64,000 nucleotides of DNA, taken from positions 10,212-74,211 of the forward strand of contig CALXUE010000004.1 in the NCBI GenBank assembly GCA_944391615.1, read 5' to 3'. Under the pieces are notes generated by a model. It did not search any database, was not told the origin of the DNA, and was given only the letters and a program-made list of their open reading frames with translations. Positions 16,114 to 19,154 of the stretch are shown in pieces (position 1 is the stretch's first letter; each line of letters starts with the position of its first letter). Origin of the DNA: an uncultured Alphaproteobacteria bacterium. Its GTDB lineage: Bacteria; Pseudomonadota; Alphaproteobacteria; RF32; CAG-239. The position numbers were made by a program, and so were the translations under genes.

Positions 16114-17583
16114 TTATAAAGCAGGTCCAAACAAATCCTGAGGAAACTCATTAAGAAAGATAAGTGCGATAAGAATACAAATAAAGGCATAGACTTGCAG
16201 CATTTGAGCCAAAGCCTTGTTTTGAAGCAAAGGCAGTCTATCACGGTAATGTTTAATAAAACGGTTAATTCCGAAAATAACAAGTGTCGTCAGCAAAGCC
16301 TGAGCGCCATATCCCATTTGATGAAGATTATCTGCCAAAGGCGTTATGATTTTGAACAAAAGTCCAAAAAAGATAAGATAGATAAAAATACCGACACAGG
16401 TCAAACGTTGAATTTTAAGAGCCTCATGGTGTTTTTCGGCTTTATCACGCTCCATATTTTCAACCGAGATGGAAGATATTTCCATACCGCGGAGCATTTG
16501 CGGCGTTTGCATTTGTTTTTTTAAGTCTTGCATATTGCCCTTAAAGCGCTCTTCGGCAATGCAGAGCCCACAGCCTTTGGAAGTAAAATAAGAGTGATTG
16601 GGATTTTTTTTGCATGTTTTAAGGTTTTTGAGCAAATAGCGCAAATGAGCCTGCCATTCTTCAGCCGTTGGCCGCACGCCCCCTTTGGTAAAGGCGCGCT
16701 CAAAAAGTTCCAAGGTTTTAGGGTCAAAATATTCATGAATAGAGTAGGGATGCGGTGCTTGATAAGAATCAGGCCACAAACCGTAAGCATAATGATATTC
16801 TTCAATACGGTTTTGAATAGTCAACATTTCGGAATCAGTTTTGCGCGGCACTCCGGAAAAAGGATGAATACCGTTGTTTAAGAGTTTGAAAATAATAACG
16901 GCAAGTGCAAATTTGTCCTGTTCTTCGCCCATATCGGCGCAGTCAAGTTCCATTCCTTCAGGATAAATATATTCTTCACTAACAAATTCGGCCGGATAAC
17001 GATTACCTTTTTCGCCTTTAATGGAAAAACCATCACAGTCAACCATAGCCACAATCATAGAGTCTTTATAGACTGATACATTAGAGGGCTTTAAATCGAC
17101 AATATAGTGTCCCGCGCGGTGGAGAGCCGCAACCATGGAGGAAACATTATAAGCGGCAAATACACGATAAGAATATTTTTCAGATAAATGTAATTTTTGC
17201 CGAATGGCTTTTTGCATCAAATGATCTAAAGAGACAGCCTCGTCCATATTAATAAACGGCATAATATAGCCGACACAAAAGCCTTTATCATCGTCAAGGA
17301 TGGCAACCGGCCAAGCAATTTGCACATATTCAACGCCATTTTTGACCGCGGGCGGAAAGTTTGGACGATTAAGCAACATGGATTCGAGTTTTTGGCGGTT
17401 TGTCGCGCTTTTATTTTTTGAGTGAAAGATTTTGGCCACATATTGCGGAAACTCTTTAACGCGATAAATTTTACCGGCGGCCCCACCGCGATTAATCATC
17501 TCTGCAAGTGTGATACGTTCAAATTTTCCGTCAGGAAAAATAGCGGCAAAAGCACAACCTTCAAGATTAGAATGTTCAATCAT
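16114..17583 (-). CDS. Ser/Thr protein kinase (TerY-P-type), with a C-terminal triple-TM anchor
   Basis: Hanks-kinase catalytic loop VDLKPSNV, DCDGF (DFG-like). Lys in VAKIFH. CGLC mini-motif. Three hydrophobic helices at the C-terminus. 1-nt TAATG overlap with the upstream PP2C gene. Confidence 0.7.
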   Translation of the reverse strand: MIEHSNLEGCAFAAIFPDGKFERITLAEMINRGGAAGKIYRVKEFPQYVAKIFHSKNKSATNRQKLESMLLNRPNFPPAVKNGVEYVQIAWPVAILDDDKGFCVGYIMPFINMDEAVSLDHLMQKAIRQKLHLSEKYSYRVFAAYNVSSMVAALHRAGHYIVDLKPSNVSVYKDSMIVAMVDCDGFSIKGEKGNRYPAEFVSEEYIYPEGMELDCADMGEEQDKFALAVIIFKLLNNGIHPFSGVPRKTDSEMLTIQNRIEEYHYAYGLWPDSYQAPHPYSIHEYFDPKTLELFERAFTKGGVRPTAEEWQAHLRYLLKNLKTCKKNPNHSYFTSKGCGLCIAEERFKGNMQDLKKQMQTPQMLRGMEISSISVENMERDKAEKHHEALKIQRLTCVGIFIYLIFFGLLFKIITPLADNLHQMGYGAQALLTTLVIFGINRFIKHYRDRLPLLQNKALAQMLQVYAFICILIALIFLNEFPQDLFGPAL

Positions 17584-18338
17584 TATTGCAGCCTCGCCCA
17601 GAGCAGAGTTTTGTCATCGGAATTCAGCCGTTTTGCAATCGGCGTATTAAGCGTGTTAATCAAAGCGCGCACAGCTTTTTGTTTTGAAATATCTTGAGCC
17701 AAAAAATTATTAATCGGCAGCAAAAAGCCTTTTTCTATTCGCTTAAAATCAGGGCTAAAAGCAAAATTTGTGAGTCCGTCGCTCATCAAAAAAATCGTGT
17801 CTACATTATCAAAAGCCGTAAAGCGCAAAGAGTCTTTCCAGTCATCCATAGTATAGAAAAAAGTTTCACAAGAAAAATTTCCGTTTTCAGGGCGAGAAGC
17901 AATAAAATCTTCATATTGAGAAGCATTAAGAGCGATTCCCGCGCCATCACCGATATGAAAAAAAATCCCTTTTCCTTGATGATAAACCGCGCCGACAAGT
18001 GTCGCCGAAAAATCAATCATACCTGATTTATCTTTAGATTTATTAAATCTGTGGCGCATAACCTTAGAACGAGCCACTTCAATAGCATTAATGATATGTG
18101 TTTTAATGTTTTTGAAATCACAATTAGAGAGCAAATCCACCATGGTGTTACAAACAATATTGGCCCCGATTTTGCCATATTGCGCCGAACCAGCACCGTC
18201 AGAGACAACGGCCACAAAATTTTTGCCGCCGACTTTATGCTTAAAACAATCCTGACAAGGAAGTTTTTTATAGCAGTGCATCGGACCGCACACACTGGTA
18301 GCCACGACCTTTATTTTATTGGGATTATTCTTCGTCAT
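17583..18338 (-). CDS. PP2C-family Ser/Thr phosphatase (TerY-P-type)
   Basis: PP2C motifs VVSDGAGS, LMSDGL and HIGDGAG. The track start at 18404 is a GTG overlapping the vWA gene. The ATG at 18338 (MTKNNPNKIKVV…) fits the PP2C N-terminus. Confidence 0.65.
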   Translation of the reverse strand: MTKNNPNKIKVVATSVCGPMHCYKKLPCQDCFKHKVGGKNFVAVVSDGAGSAQYGKIGANIVCNTMVDLLSNCDFKNIKTHIINAIEVARSKVMRHRFNKSKDKSGMIDFSATLVGAVYHQGKGIFFHIGDGAGIALNASQYEDFIASRPENGNFSCETFFYTMDDWKDSLRFTAFDNVDTIFLMSDGLTNFAFSPDFKRIEKGFLLPINNFLAQDISKQKAVRALINTLNTPIAKRLNSDDKTLLWARLQ

Positions 18339-19017
18339 TCCAATCGCCCGTATCATCAAGCAAATCGGGAACATTCGGAGCCGCCTTGGATACGCAGGAC
18401 ACACTTCTGGAGAGCCACAAGAAAAACTCCGTAAACTTCAATCCGGTTAACCTCTTTGGGGAGATGGTTGAAAACTTAGCCAATTTTTCGAGATTCGCCC
18501 CCTGAGTTCCCACCGCATGGATAACCACCTTTTTAGCATTTTGAGCATCGCGGCATTTTTTAGCCACAATTTCCCAGTCATAATCAGTTGGTTCCCCGTC
18601 ACTGATAAGAAAAATCCACGGCCGCTTGGAGGTAATGCCGCAACTATCATAAAGACATTTCTGTTCTTCGATTTTTTGCAAAGCAAGTTCCATAGCTTTG
18701 CCCAAAGGCGTAAGGCCGCCGGCTTCCATAACGGGAGCGGTAAAATTCATGGCATCCACCCAGTCAGAGGTCGTTTCAACCTCATCTTTGCCAAAAGCTT
18801 TGATGATGAGAAGTTGTACACGGGAAGAAGCGTCAATATCGTCCTTGAGTTCATTTTCAAGAGCTTTAAGACCGGCATTAAGCTGCTTGATAGGTTCACC
18901 GCGCATAGAGCCGGAACAATCTAACACCAAAACGCAAGGCGTGCGCTCATTGGCGTTATCGGCAAATTCCACATAAGGGATCATTTCTTCAGGGATTTTA
19001 GAATTTTCATCAACCAT
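18325..19017 (-). CDS. vWA-domain protein, TerY-like
   Basis: MIDAS motif LVLDCSGSM. GLTPLG and ISDGEPTD motifs. 230 aa, typical TerY size. Confidence 0.75.
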   Translation of the reverse strand: MVDENSKIPEEMIPYVEFADNANERTPCVLVLDCSGSMRGEPIKQLNAGLKALENELKDDIDASSRVQLLIIKAFGKDEVETTSDWVDAMNFTAPVMEAGGLTPLGKAMELALQKIEEQKCLYDSCGITSKRPWIFLISDGEPTDYDWEIVAKKCRDAQNAKKVVIHAVGTQGANLEKLAKFSTISPKRLTGLKFTEFFLWLSRSVSCVSKAAPNVPDLLDDTGDWNDEE

Positions 19018-19022
19018 AATTC

Positions 19023-19154
19023 TTAACTCCGCGGATAAGAATGAGGATAGCCTGATCCTTCATAAGGTTCGGGATTAGCCATTTTGCCGCAGGCAGATAA
19101 AGCCAGAACCATAGCGGCAATCATTATGAAACAGAAAAATTTTTTGTTCATCAT
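19023..19154 (-). CDS. 43-aa lipoprotein micro-ORF upstream of the triad
   Basis: My translation: MMNKKFFCFIMIAAMVLALSACGKMANPEPYEGSGYPHSYPRS, with lipobox LSAC. It ends 5 nt before the vWA start. Not in the ORF track (under 60 aa). Confidence 0.3.
   Translation of the reverse strand: MMNKKFFCFIMIAAMVLALSACGKMANPEPYEGSGYPHSYPRS

What the first reader, a model, noticed from the sequence alone, without database searches (positions are those of the whole stretch)
16114..19154. Complete TerY-P-type triad (vWA, PP2C, Ser/Thr kinase) with a leading lipoprotein micro-ORF
Three tightly coupled minus-strand genes sit in the canonical TerY-P order: a TerY-like vWA protein, a PP2C phosphatase and a Hanks kinase. 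Their junctions overlap by 14 nt and by 1 nt. This triad was described from comparative genomics as a phospho-signalling module and later reported as an anti-phage defence system. The kinase here carries a C-terminal triple-TM anchor and a CGLC mini-motif. A 43-aa lipoprotein ORF sits 5 nt upstream. A defence triad in what looks like a reduced, host-associated genome is unexpected. It lies between housekeeping genes and the pilus locus, so it looks accessory.
Basis: partly seen in the sequence, partly recalled or inferred. Interest (0 to 1): 0.7.

Follow-up and report, generated by a model that had tools for sequence, protein, structure and literature searches.

The report
Core vWA–phosphatase–kinase operon with micro-lipoprotein
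The three genes are a real TerY-P/YegL–PphC–YegI-type signalling triad led by a real 43-residue lipoprotein gene, but in this group of gut Alphaproteobacteria it is a fixed, vertically inherited core operon, not an accessory anti-phage island.

Summary
Observation confirmed. On the minus strand lie a 43-aa lipoprotein ORF (19023-19154), a vWA protein (18325-19017), a PP2C phosphatase (17583-18338) and a Hanks-type kinase (16114-17583). The gap and overlaps are 5 nt, 14 nt and 1 nt, as stated.

The triad is homologous to E. coli YegL (43% identity), PphC and YegI. All MIDAS, PP2C and kinase catalytic residues are invariant in 80 species. The "CGLC" belongs to an invariant C-x5-H-x7-C-x2-C knuckle that YegI shares.

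The "accessory defence system" reading is not supported.
- PADLOC gives no call (TerY model E=0.04).
- The kinase carries three TM helices, not the OB fold of the validated defence version.
- The block TlpA | lipoprotein–vWA–PP2C–kinase–NMO sits at the same place in 75/75 species-level genomes with enough flank.
- It is also present in 51/56 metagenome loci chosen through the neighbouring NMO gene. Four of the five without it are outgroups.
- The vWA protein (median 88% identity) is about as conserved as ribosomal protein S1.

Plasmid-borne relatives in other Alphaproteobacteria lack the lipoprotein and have DNA-binding kinase tails.

Best reading: a domesticated, membrane-anchored Ser/Thr phospho-switch acting on a highly constrained vWA protein. 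Its physiological output is unknown, as it is for E. coli YegLKI.

The parts
19182..19210 (-). Promoter-like conserved blocks upstream of the micro-ORF: TTGTGT at 19205-19210, a 17-nt spacer, TATAGT at 19182-19187. AAAGG lies before the ATG.
   Evidence: I aligned the TlpA/lipoprotein intergenic spacer from 24 species. It shows conserved TTAATAACT, TTTTGTGTTT, GTATATA and AAAAGGTTT blocks. The match to the sigma-70 consensus is only 8/12, so promoter function is inferred.
19023..19154 (-). 43-aa micro-lipoprotein. Signal peptide, lipobox L-S-A-C, and a 22-residue mature peptide, CGKMANPEPYEGSGYPHSYPRS.
   Evidence: Found 4-28 nt upstream of the vWA gene in 79/79 species-level loci. The mature part follows the consensus C-G-K-x-S-x-P-x-P-x-E-G-S-G-Y-P-H-x-Y-P-R. 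A profile search listed its best 120 hits (324 at E<=10), all proteins of 39-70 aa (most 40-46) with no Pfam domain. The LptM model stays below its cut-off, 19.8 against 27.7 bits.
18325..19017 (-). TerY/YegL-like vWA protein (230 aa). MIDAS residues D33-x-S35-x-S37, T103 and D140. Terminal helix and tail carry W201-L-S203-R-S205-V-S207-C-V-S210.
   Evidence: Pfam VWA 3e-7. 43% identity to E. coli YegL, E=3e-50. MIDAS and Ser-cluster residues are invariant in 80/80 sequences. Median identity across 79 species is 88%. The AF2 model has a vWA fold with its last helix at 193-207 and a disordered tail at 208-230. Foldseek returns generic vWA domains.
17583..18338 (-). PP2C-type Ser/Thr phosphatase (251 aa). 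D30, D47-G48, D131-G132, D187-G188 and D241-D242.
   Evidence: PF13672 PP2C_2 at 9e-35. 25% identity to E. coli PphC, E=2e-15. All listed Asp/Gly residues are invariant in 80/80 and identical in PphC. The start overlaps the vWA gene by 8-38 nt in all 79 species.
16114..17583 (-). Hanks-type Ser/Thr kinase (489 aa). Cytoplasmic kinase domain (about residues 20-320), CHCC knuckle, helical linker and a three-helix membrane anchor.
   Evidence: Pkinase 6e-10. 30% identity to YegI over residues 22-332, E=2e-34. K51, D163, K165, N168, D182-C183-D184 and D223 are invariant. AF2 pLDDT is 76; the top Foldseek hits are PknA, PknB and BRAF.
16561..16614 (-). Zn-knuckle motif of the kinase, C324-x5-H330-x7-C338-x2-C341.
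   Evidence: Invariant in 80/80 clade sequences. The four ligand residues align with C/H/C/C of E. coli YegI. The same motif occurs in the Azospirillum and Methylocystis plasmid homologues. Metal binding was not tested.
16150..16410 (-). C-terminal membrane anchor of the kinase (residues about 392-478; three helices). The 445-458 loop is positively charged.
   Evidence: Hydropathy and AF2 helices. In the 1.8-billion-protein search, only clade members align over this region.
14634..16022 (-). NMO-family flavoprotein (462 aa). It is the conserved downstream neighbour and is possibly co-transcribed.
   Evidence: PF03060. It lies on the same strand directly downstream in 66/72 species. No terminator-like site lies between the kinase and NMO. 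No NCBIfam match.
14596..14620 (-). Terminator-like hairpin (11-bp stem plus T run) just after NMO.
   Evidence: It is the only strong minus-strand terminator-like site between 19.2 and 14.5 kb.
19233..19793 (+). TlpA-like periplasmic thiol:disulfide oxidoreductase (CMPC motif). It is the conserved divergent neighbour.
   Evidence: NCBIfam TlpA/ResA/DsbE matches, all below their cut-offs. It is divergently adjacent in 75/75 species with enough flank. It stays adjacent in distant members whose outer flanks differ.

Best explanation
The locus is a chromosomally fixed, vertically inherited four-gene operon. It may run on into the NMO gene. The host is an uncultured lineage of gut Alphaproteobacteria (the CAG-495 / Ca. 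Scatocola type).

Its core is the TerY-P triad, the same module as E. coli yegL-pphC-yegI.

Proposed mechanism:
1. The kinase sits in the inner membrane through three C-terminal helices. Its catalytic domain and Zn knuckle face the cytoplasm.
2. It activates by autophosphorylation, probably as a dimer.
3. The PP2C resets it.
4. The soluble vWA protein is the regulated output or hub. Its MIDAS site and its Ser-rich terminal helix and tail (S203/S205/S207/S210) are the likely points where phosphorylation changes binding to a highly conserved cellular partner.
5. The 22-residue mature lipopeptide encoded by the first gene is a lineage-specific fourth component. It acts on the periplasmic side of the membrane, possibly on the two short periplasmic segments of the kinase.

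Shown here: gene structure, homology, intact catalytic and MIDAS residues, coupling, topology prediction, and lineage-wide conservation and synteny.

Taken from E. coli work: kinase activity, membrane location, and dephosphorylation of the kinase by the PP2C.

Inferred: vWA as substrate or output, the role of the lipopeptide, and the housekeeping (non-defence) role.
For: Homology to YegL, PphC and YegI.

E. coli precedent:
- YegI is an active, Mn2+-preferring, autophosphorylating two-pass inner-membrane kinase with a DSD loop (bioRxiv 10.1101/819920). The window protein has D182-C183-D184 at that loop.
- PphC dephosphorylates YegI (bioRxiv 10.1101/303594).
- yegL-pphC is present in 5415/5426 complete E. 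coli genomes. This shows such a triad can be species-core.

Conservation:
- All key residues are invariant in 80/80 sequences.
- Gene overlaps are conserved in all 79 species.
- The kinase scan found relatives in 251 species-level genomes.
- Synteny: TlpA divergent 75/75, lipoprotein 75/75, NMO 66/72.
- Sampling anchored on NMO found the triad in 51/56 loci. Four of the five exceptions are outgroups with NMO at 57% identity or less.
- Median identity: vWA 88%, against 89% for ribosomal protein S1 (measured in only 10 close species), 66% for the kinase, 59% for PP2C and 44% for TlpA.

Context:
- No defence or mobility genes within +/-10 kb.
- G+C is normal.
- A conserved promoter-like spacer lies upstream of the micro-ORF.
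- The only terminator-like site follows NMO.
Against: - No experiment bears on this clade. The organisms are uncultured.
- No substrate is known, even for E. coli YegI/PphC (PMC13232886).
- vWA phosphorylation is an inference from a conserved Ser cluster.
- The lipopeptide could work with TlpA or be a divergent LptM, not a partner of the kinase.
- Fixation and strong conservation make a defence role unlikely but do not exclude it.
- I could not determine how many genomes of the clade lack the triad, because the genome scan was seeded with the kinase itself.
Confidence: 0.65

Rival explanations
1. It is an anti-phage TerY-P defence system, that happens to have become fixed in this lineage. On this view the kinase/phosphatase switch senses infection and triggers a protective response through the vWA protein.
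For: The domain triad and gene order match TerY-P. TerY-P systems protect against T7-like phages and Autographiviridae (PMC7699616; bioRxiv 10.1101/2022.08.12.503731). Homologous triads in other Alphaproteobacteria sit on plasmids next to HipA, methyltransferases and nucleases.
Against: - The PADLOC TerY model scores only E=0.04, and there are no PP2C or kinase calls.
- The validated systems carry an OB fold on the kinase (PMC11090510). This kinase ends in TM helices, with no nucleic-acid-binding module.
- The position is the same in 75/75 species, and the triad is present in 51/56 loci sampled through a neighbour.
- vWA conservation matches that of ribosomal protein S1, the opposite of the fast, patchy evolution typical of defence genes.
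- There is no neighbouring defence island.
Confidence: 0.12
2. The triad regulates the adjacent type IVb pilus locus. The analogy is the archaeal vWA protein ArnB, which (from memory, not checked here) is phospho-regulated by Hanks-type kinases and controls expression of a type IV filament.
For: A PilT-like ATPase and a bundlin/PilS-type pilin locus lie 1-2 kb upstream in the window and in 57 of 80 species loci. The vWA model matches the ArnAB complex structure 8s05 at E=1.6e-7, among many other vWA domains.
Against: - The pilus genes are separated from the operon by gpt and tlpA.
- They are relocated or inverted in several species (L039, L040, L048).
- They are absent from the +/-8 kb flanks of distant clade members that keep the TlpA-to-NMO block.
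- The ArnB resemblance is a general fold match.
Confidence: 0.08
3. The micro-lipoprotein is not part of the phospho-module. It is a divergent LptM-like or envelope-redox lipoprotein that works with the divergently transcribed TlpA-like oxidoreductase, and it merely shares a promoter region with the triad.
For: Weak matches to the NCBIfam LptM model in 8/22 members, best E=1.3e-5. TlpA is adjacent in 75/75 species. The plasmid triads of three other Alphaproteobacteria examined lack any such micro-ORF within 400 nt upstream.
Against: - The LptM matches cover mainly the signal peptide and lipobox, and the window protein scores below the family cut-off. Generic lipoprotein models score similarly.
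- The hallmark GSGYPHxYPR motif did not produce a Pfam LptM match.
- The ORF lies on the triad strand, only 4-28 nt from the vWA start in all species, with the vWA Shine-Dalgarno inside its 3' end.
Confidence: 0.1

Closest known systems
E. coli YegL - PphC (YegK) - YegI
   Same: - Same three proteins in the same order: vWA 43% identical, PP2C 25%, kinase 30%.
- Same MIDAS residues and WLSxS motif.
- Same PP2C aspartates.
- Same D-x-D loop in place of DFG.
- Same C..H..CxxC knuckle after the kinase domain.
- The kinase is membrane-anchored with a cytoplasmic catalytic domain (bioRxiv 10.1101/819920).
- Chromosomal and species-core, in 5415/5426 genomes.
- The physiological role is unknown in both.
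   Different: - YegI has two TM helices followed by a cytoplasmic tail of about 200 residues with a weak HHH match. The window kinase has three helices and ends there.
- The window catalytic loop is canonical (H-x-x-x-D-L-K-P-S-N). YegI has VGDVNQNS.
- C183 replaces the autophosphorylated Ser162 of YegI.
- E. coli has no leader micro-lipoprotein and no TlpA or NMO neighbours.
TerY-P triad of comparative genomics (Anantharaman, Iyer and Aravind 2012, as summarised in PMC11090510 and PMC4978471)
   Same: A TerY-like vWA, a PP2C and an STK fused to a C-terminal zinc ribbon, forming a tightly coupled operon. It is hypothesised to be a metal-sensing phospho-switch.
   Different: Classical examples are embedded in mobile or conflict-related contexts: ter clusters, McrBC/CoCoNuT systems, WXG100/FtsK modules and plasmids. 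Here there are none. The context is gpt, tlpA, NMO and housekeeping genes, and inheritance is vertical. I could not read the primary paper.
TerY-P anti-phage system (Gao et al. 2020; P. aeruginosa variant in bioRxiv 10.1101/2022.08.12.503731)
   Same: The same three domain types in one cassette.
   Different: The kinase C-terminus is an OB fold in the validated systems (PMC11090510) and TM helices here. PADLOC models do not recognise the window proteins or E. coli YegL/PphC/YegI. Defence versions are accessory; this one is fixed.
Plasmid-borne vWA-PP2C-kinase triads of Sphingomonas, Azospirillum and Methylocystis
   Same: Alphaproteobacterial homologues: vWA 43-44% identical, kinase 27-38%. 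Same order and overlaps.
   Different: - They lie on mobilizable or large plasmids, next to MobC, HipA, methyltransferases, a GIY-YIG nuclease and an exonuclease.
- Their kinases are 632-680 aa, with HHH or topoisomerase-type Zn-ribbon tails, or TM-plus-other tails.
- They have no micro-lipoprotein.

Membership tests
TerY-P triad / YegL-PphC-YegI module | TerY/YegL-type vWA protein with a complete MIDAS (DxSxS...T...D) and the C-terminal F-x-W-L-S-x-S motif | tested here: met
   43% identity to YegL. The motif is shared with YegL and three plasmid homologues. The residues are invariant in 80/80 sequences.
TerY-P triad / YegL-PphC-YegI module | PP2C phosphatase gene immediately downstream, with metal-binding aspartates | tested here: met
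   PF13672 at 9e-35. D30, D47, D131, D187 and D241/D242 are invariant and identical in PphC. The overlap with vWA is conserved.
TerY-P triad / YegL-PphC-YegI module | Hanks-type Ser/Thr kinase as the third gene, with catalytic Lys and Asp | tested here: met
   Pkinase above the gathering score. 30% identity to YegI. K51, D163, N168 and D182/D184 are invariant. The model has a kinase fold. The alpha-C Glu is not clearly identifiable: E67 is variable.
TerY-P triad / YegL-PphC-YegI module | Zinc ribbon or knuckle fused after the kinase domain | tested here: met
   The C324/H330/C338/C341 motif is invariant and aligns with YegI. It is also present in plasmid homologues. Zn binding itself cannot be tested with these tools.
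TerY-P anti-phage defence system (Gao 2020; PADLOC) | Significant match of the three proteins to the curated defence HMMs | tested here: not met
   PADLOC TerY model PDLC02224 scores E=0.042 (11.4 bits). Nothing matches the PP2C. The kinase matches only PD-T4-6, MkoA and PglW kinase domains weakly. I could not run DefenseFinder.
TerY-P anti-phage defence system (Gao 2020; PADLOC) | Kinase fused to a C-terminal OB fold (as described in PMC11090510) | tested here: not met
   After the knuckle the protein has only a helical linker and three TM helices.
TerY-P anti-phage defence system (Gao 2020; PADLOC) | Accessory, patchy distribution in defence islands or mobile elements | tested here: not met
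   The locus is the same in 75/75 species. The triad is present in 51/56 NMO-anchored loci. There are no mobility or defence neighbours, and G+C is normal.
TerY-P anti-phage defence system (Gao 2020; PADLOC) | Protection against phage when expressed | not testable with these tools
   This needs a plaque or efficiency-of-plating assay in a surrogate host.
Ter (tellurite-resistance) gene cluster | TerY adjacent to terZABCDE/TerD-family genes | tested here: not met
   No TerB, TerC or TerD Pfam families appear among the called genes within +/-10 kb.
LptM (YifL) lipoprotein, for the micro-ORF | Score above the NCBIfam NF047847 or Pfam PF13627 cut-off, covering the conserved mature region | tested here: inconclusive
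   19.8 bits against a cut-off of 27.7, matching residues 2-23 only, that is the signal peptide and lipobox. 8/22 homologues match at E<=0.01, alongside generic lipoprotein models. Pfam LptM_cons matches 2/22 at E=0.02.

The most novel reading that the evidence does not exclude
The lineage-specific 22-residue lipopeptide and the three-helix kinase anchor form a dedicated trans-membrane sensor pair. This pair would convert a formerly mobile TerY-P conflict module into an indispensable envelope-signalling pathway. Its output, the near-invariant YegL-like vWA protein, would bind a core cellular machine. If so, this uncultured clade would offer the clearest natural case from which to work out the long-unknown physiological function of the YegL-PphC-YegI/TerY-P family.
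Probability: 0.2. Interest if true: 0.6.

Novelty: new variant of a known kind. Interest (0 to 1): 0.4.

Why it matters
TerY-P/YegLKI triads are widespread: 755 kinase cluster representatives score E<=1e-30, and 2331 plasmid records match the vWA protein. No physiological substrate or signal is known for them, even in E. coli.

This locus shows the module can be domesticated. It has been fixed at one chromosomal site across a whole gut-bacterial lineage. It has lost the nucleic-acid-binding kinase tail and gained a conserved micro-lipoprotein. Its vWA component is held as constant as a ribosomal protein.

That argues for a function beyond phage defence. It also cautions against calling defence systems from domain content alone. 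It gives concrete targets for experiment: the S203-S210 cluster, the CHCC knuckle, and the invariant loop at residues 263-281.

The locus is not a new kind of system.

Tried and rejected
- PADLOC at E<=0.01 and again at E<=10, with E. coli YegL/PphC/YegI as comparators. No defence call for either set.
- The primary TerY-P paper (Anantharaman 2012) by DOI and by PMC id. Not held. I used secondary descriptions.
- Sequence search of the PDB. Only distant eukaryotic kinases for the kinase, and nothing for the vWA.
- Fold searches. Generic Hanks kinases and generic vWA domains, with no functional clue beyond the fold.
- Phage collection. The two close hits are bacterial chromosome fragments filed as "Bacteriophage sp.". 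They are not evidence of phage carriage.
- Names for the nearest out-group kinases. None is informative.
- LptM identity for the micro-ORF. Inconclusive.
- A consensus promoter scan did not pick up the conserved spacer motif. The cross-species alignment did.
- Considered and dropped: a link to tellurite resistance (no ter genes nearby), horizontal acquisition judged from composition (no G+C anomaly), and a tRNA-flanked island (the only tRNA is about 7 kb away).
- Not attempted: covariation analysis between the lipopeptide and the kinase loops (phylogenetic confounding), and complex prediction (no multimer tool).

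
Full report
**1. What is in the sequence**

- a 43-aa ORF (19154->19023)
- a 230-aa protein (19017->18325)
- a 251-aa protein (18338->17583)
- a 489-aa protein (17583->16114)

The spacings are a 5-nt gap, a 14-nt overlap and a 1-nt overlap (TAATG).

Pfam identifies the three large proteins as VWA (3e-7), PP2C_2 (9e-35) and Pkinase (6e-10).

The small ORF has a signal peptide and a lipobox (L-S-A-C). 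It has no Pfam family. Its only NCBIfam matches are weak hits to lipoprotein signal peptides; the best is LptM at 19.8 bits against a cut-off of 27.7.

G+C across 16-19 kb is 0.38-0.44, no different from the rest of the window.

**2. Whose genome, and how the locus behaves in relatives**

The exact kinase protein occurs on many metagenome contigs with identical gene order.

A scan of one genome per GTDB species found relatives in 251 stretches. The best 80 are all uncultured gut Alphaproteobacteria: "Proteobacteria bacterium CAG:495", Candidatus Scatocola, and "uncultured Azospirillum sp. UMGS63". Hosts include human, chicken, deer and mouse.

I mapped ten window proteins onto those loci. Among loci with enough flanking sequence:
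- the TlpA-like gene is divergently adjacent in 75/75
- the micro-ORF sits just upstream of vWA in 75/75
- NMO follows the kinase on the same strand in 66/72
- gpt flanks tlpA in 60/71

More distant members have vWA about 80% and kinase about 56% identical to the window. Their outer flanks are different (EF-P, L31 and TrcR, or ankyrin proteins and ZapA). They still keep TlpA | micro-ORF-vWA-PP2C-kinase-NMO.

The genome scan was seeded with the kinase, so it could not reveal absences. I therefore sampled again through the neighbouring gene, using an NMO profile against metagenome contigs. Of 56 loci with at least 3.4 kb upstream of NMO, 51 carry the full triad, with TlpA and the micro-ORF. The five exceptions are four out-group loci (NMO 52-57% identical) and one locus, L160.

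The block is therefore a fixed, vertically inherited feature of the lineage, not an accessory insertion.

**3. Degree of constraint**

Median identity to the window, across the species loci:

| Protein | Median identity |
|---|---|
| Ribosomal protein S1 (10 closest species only) | 89% |
| vWA | 88% (range 83-93) |
| NMO | 80% |
| PilT-like ATPase | 71% |
| Kinase | 66% |
| Gpt | 60% |
| PP2C | 59% |
| TlpA | 44% |

Sixty-five per cent of vWA positions are invariant in 80 sequences.

The following residues are all invariant in 80/80:
- vWA MIDAS: D33, S35, S37, T103, D140
- vWA Ser cluster: S203, S205, S207, S210
- PP2C: D30, D47, D131, D187, D241, D242
- Kinase: K51, D163, K165, N168, D182, C183, D184, D223
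- Kinase knuckle: C324, H330, C338, C341

The vWA/PP2C overlap (8-38 nt) is conserved in all 79 species. The PP2C/kinase junction ranges from -22 to +12 nt. The three proteins are thus predicted to be active and translationally coupled.

**4. Relationship to known systems**

*E. coli.* The three proteins are homologous to E. coli K-12 YegL (43% identity, 3e-50), PphC/YegK (25%, 2e-15) and YegI (30% over residues 22-332, 2e-34).

YegI shares two features with the window kinase:
- the C..H..CxxC motif directly after the kinase domain
- the unusual D-x-D loop in place of DFG (DSD in YegI, DCD here)

Published work on the E. coli proteins shows:
- YegI is an active, Mn2+-preferring, autophosphorylating kinase and a two-pass inner-membrane protein with cytoplasmic termini (bioRxiv 10.1101/819920).
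- PphC is an active PP2C that dephosphorylates YegI (bioRxiv 10.1101/303594).
- Their physiological role was still unknown in 2026 (PMC13232886).

The yegL-pphC pair is in 5415 of 5426 complete E. coli genomes. This is a precedent for a species-core triad of this type.

*The TerY-P literature.* It defines the triad as a TerY-like vWA, a PP2C and an STK with a C-terminal zinc ribbon. It notes that the experimentally validated defence version has an OB fold in that position instead (PMC11090510). Defence against T7-like phages and Autographiviridae has been shown (PMC7699616; bioRxiv 10.1101/2022.08.12.503731).

*PADLOC.* The TerY model scores only E=0.04 on the window vWA and 0.03 on YegL. Nothing matches either PP2C. 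The kinases give only weak matches to unrelated kinase-containing systems.

So the locus belongs to the TerY-P/YegLKI homology group but fails the tests for the defence system proper.

**5. Mobile relatives, and what is special here**

The vWA protein matches 2331 plasmid records. The closest, at 41-47% identity, are in other Alphaproteobacteria and other phyla.

In Sphingomonas, Azospirillum and Methylocystis plasmids, the same vWA-PP2C-kinase cassette lies among MobC, HipA, methyltransferases, a GIY-YIG nuclease and an exonuclease. Those kinases are 632-680 aa. After the knuckle they carry HHH or topoisomerase Zn-ribbon tails, or a TM helix followed by other sequence. None has a lipoprotein micro-ORF upstream.

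In a search of 1.8 billion representatives, 755 kinases score E<=1e-30. The clade's own members are at least 60% identical over the full length. The next relatives are at most 46% identical, align only over residues about 12-357, and range from 435 to 1145 aa.

The common core is therefore the kinase domain plus the knuckle, with a variable C-terminal module. The three-helix anchor with no further domain is specific to this clade.

The AlphaFold2 model (pLDDT 76) shows:
- a Hanks kinase fold (top matches PknA, PknB and BRAF)
- a helix at 339-359
- three long helices at 374-407, 409-446 and 456-477

The positively charged 445-458 loop fits an N-in/C-out topology. That leaves only about 12-residue periplasmic segments.

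**6. The micro-lipoprotein**

In 79/79 species the ORF has a signal peptide, a lipobox and a mature peptide of about 22 residues. The consensus is C-G-K-x-S-x-P-x-P-x-E-G-S-G-Y-P-H-x-Y-P-R. C22, P30, S34, Y36, P37, Y40 and P41 are invariant in a 22-sequence sample. The ORF ends 4-28 nt before the vWA start.

A profile search found 324 hits at E<=10. The best 120 listed are proteins of 39-70 aa (most 40-46). None has a Pfam domain. The few that carry a name are "hypothetical protein [Alphaproteobacteria bacterium]".

Similarity to LptM is confined to the signal peptide and lipobox region, and it is matched by other generic lipoprotein models.

The 78-nt spacer between tlpA and the micro-ORF contains conserved blocks, including a -10-like GTATATA and an AAAGG ribosome-binding site. 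The only strong terminator-like hairpin on this strand follows NMO, at 14596-14620.

The micro-ORF is therefore most likely the first gene of the transcription unit. That is an inference. No expression data were available.

**7. Mechanism proposed**

By homology with YegI/PphC, the kinase is an inner-membrane, autophosphorylating Ser/Thr kinase that its cognate PP2C resets.

The vWA model (pLDDT 78) has a standard vWA fold. Its last helix (193-207) and disordered tail (208-230) carry the invariant Ser cluster. Part of this cluster (W-L-S-x-S, plus the Ser aligned with S210) is shared with YegL and the plasmid homologues.

In integrin-type vWA domains, the terminal helix is allosterically coupled to the MIDAS site. 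This is established structural knowledge and was not tested here. Phosphorylation there is thus a plausible way to switch ligand binding.

The extreme conservation of vWA, compared with the two enzymes, suggests it is the hub that contacts a conserved cellular partner.

One kinase loop (residues 263-281, HYAYGLWPDSYQAPHPYSI) is nearly invariant but modelled with low confidence. It is a candidate docking surface.

The lipopeptide may modulate the kinase from the periplasmic side, or it may act with TlpA. All of these steps are inferences.

**8. Verdict**

The family assignment is correct at the level of the TerY-P/YegLKI module.

The defence and accessory interpretation is not supported. What is present is a domesticated, lineage-core variant with a new fourth component. 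It is of moderate interest, mainly as a handle on the unknown physiological role of a very widespread module, and as a caution against reading domain triads as defence systems.

Noticed in passing
L095 (GenBank MT836238.1, whole record); also MT839721.1: Two records filed as "UNVERIFIED: Bacteriophage sp." from human faeces. MT836238.1 carries pilT-TlpA-lipoprotein-vWA-PP2C-kinase-NMO in the same order as the window. It is a bacterial chromosome fragment, not a phage. MT839721.1 was matched only through its vWA gene.
   Followed up: partly
L087 (E. coli K-12 2151711-2153128) against 5426 E. coli genomes: yegL-pphC is present in 5415/5426 complete genomes. In 1777 of them it is only 90-95% identical in nucleotide sequence to K-12. 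The locus is species-core, with a wide spread of nucleotide identity (no baseline for other E. coli core genes was measured).
   Followed up: no
window 19155-19232: The 78-nt divergent spacer between tlpA and the micro-ORF holds sequence blocks conserved across 24 species (TTAATAACT, TTTTGTGTTT, GTATATA). TTAATAACT could be an operator or the tlpA promoter.
   Followed up: partly
window 16741-16797 (kinase residues 263-281): A nearly invariant loop, HYAYGLWPDSYQAPHPYSI, that AlphaFold2 models with pLDDT below 50. It may be a protein-docking surface.
   Followed up: no
window 33974-43945: A VirB4/TrbE-like ATPase (33974-36406) is followed by four long plus-strand ORFs with no Pfam match (36516-43945). 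The region has unusually high AT skew (0.26-0.42). It may be a type IV secretion or conjugation-related block.
   Followed up: partly
window 20294-30536: A long minus-strand type IVb pilus locus: PilT-like and T2SSE ATPases, T2SSF, a bundlin/PilS-type pilin and PilO. It is syntenic in most but not all related species.
   Followed up: partly
window 14634-16022: A 462-aa NMO-family flavoprotein with a Cys-rich C-terminal region (CVGCLSQCQ...C.H). It has no NCBIfam match, is 66-97% conserved, and stays next to the operon even after local rearrangements (L049, L082).
   Followed up: partly
L160 (metagenome contig Ga0193952_1001374): An NMO homologue 67% identical to the window protein with no triad upstream; a 718-aa ORF lies there instead. 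It is the only in-clade exception seen.
   Followed up: no
P0252 and P0391 (ENA contig of 161,027 bp): Two out-group kinase paralogues (808 aa and 1061 aa, the latter with ankyrin repeats) are both listed with a longest contig of 161,027 bp (ENA), so probably on one contig (not verified). This suggests tandem or duplicated TerY-P-type kinases with different C-terminal modules.
   Followed up: no
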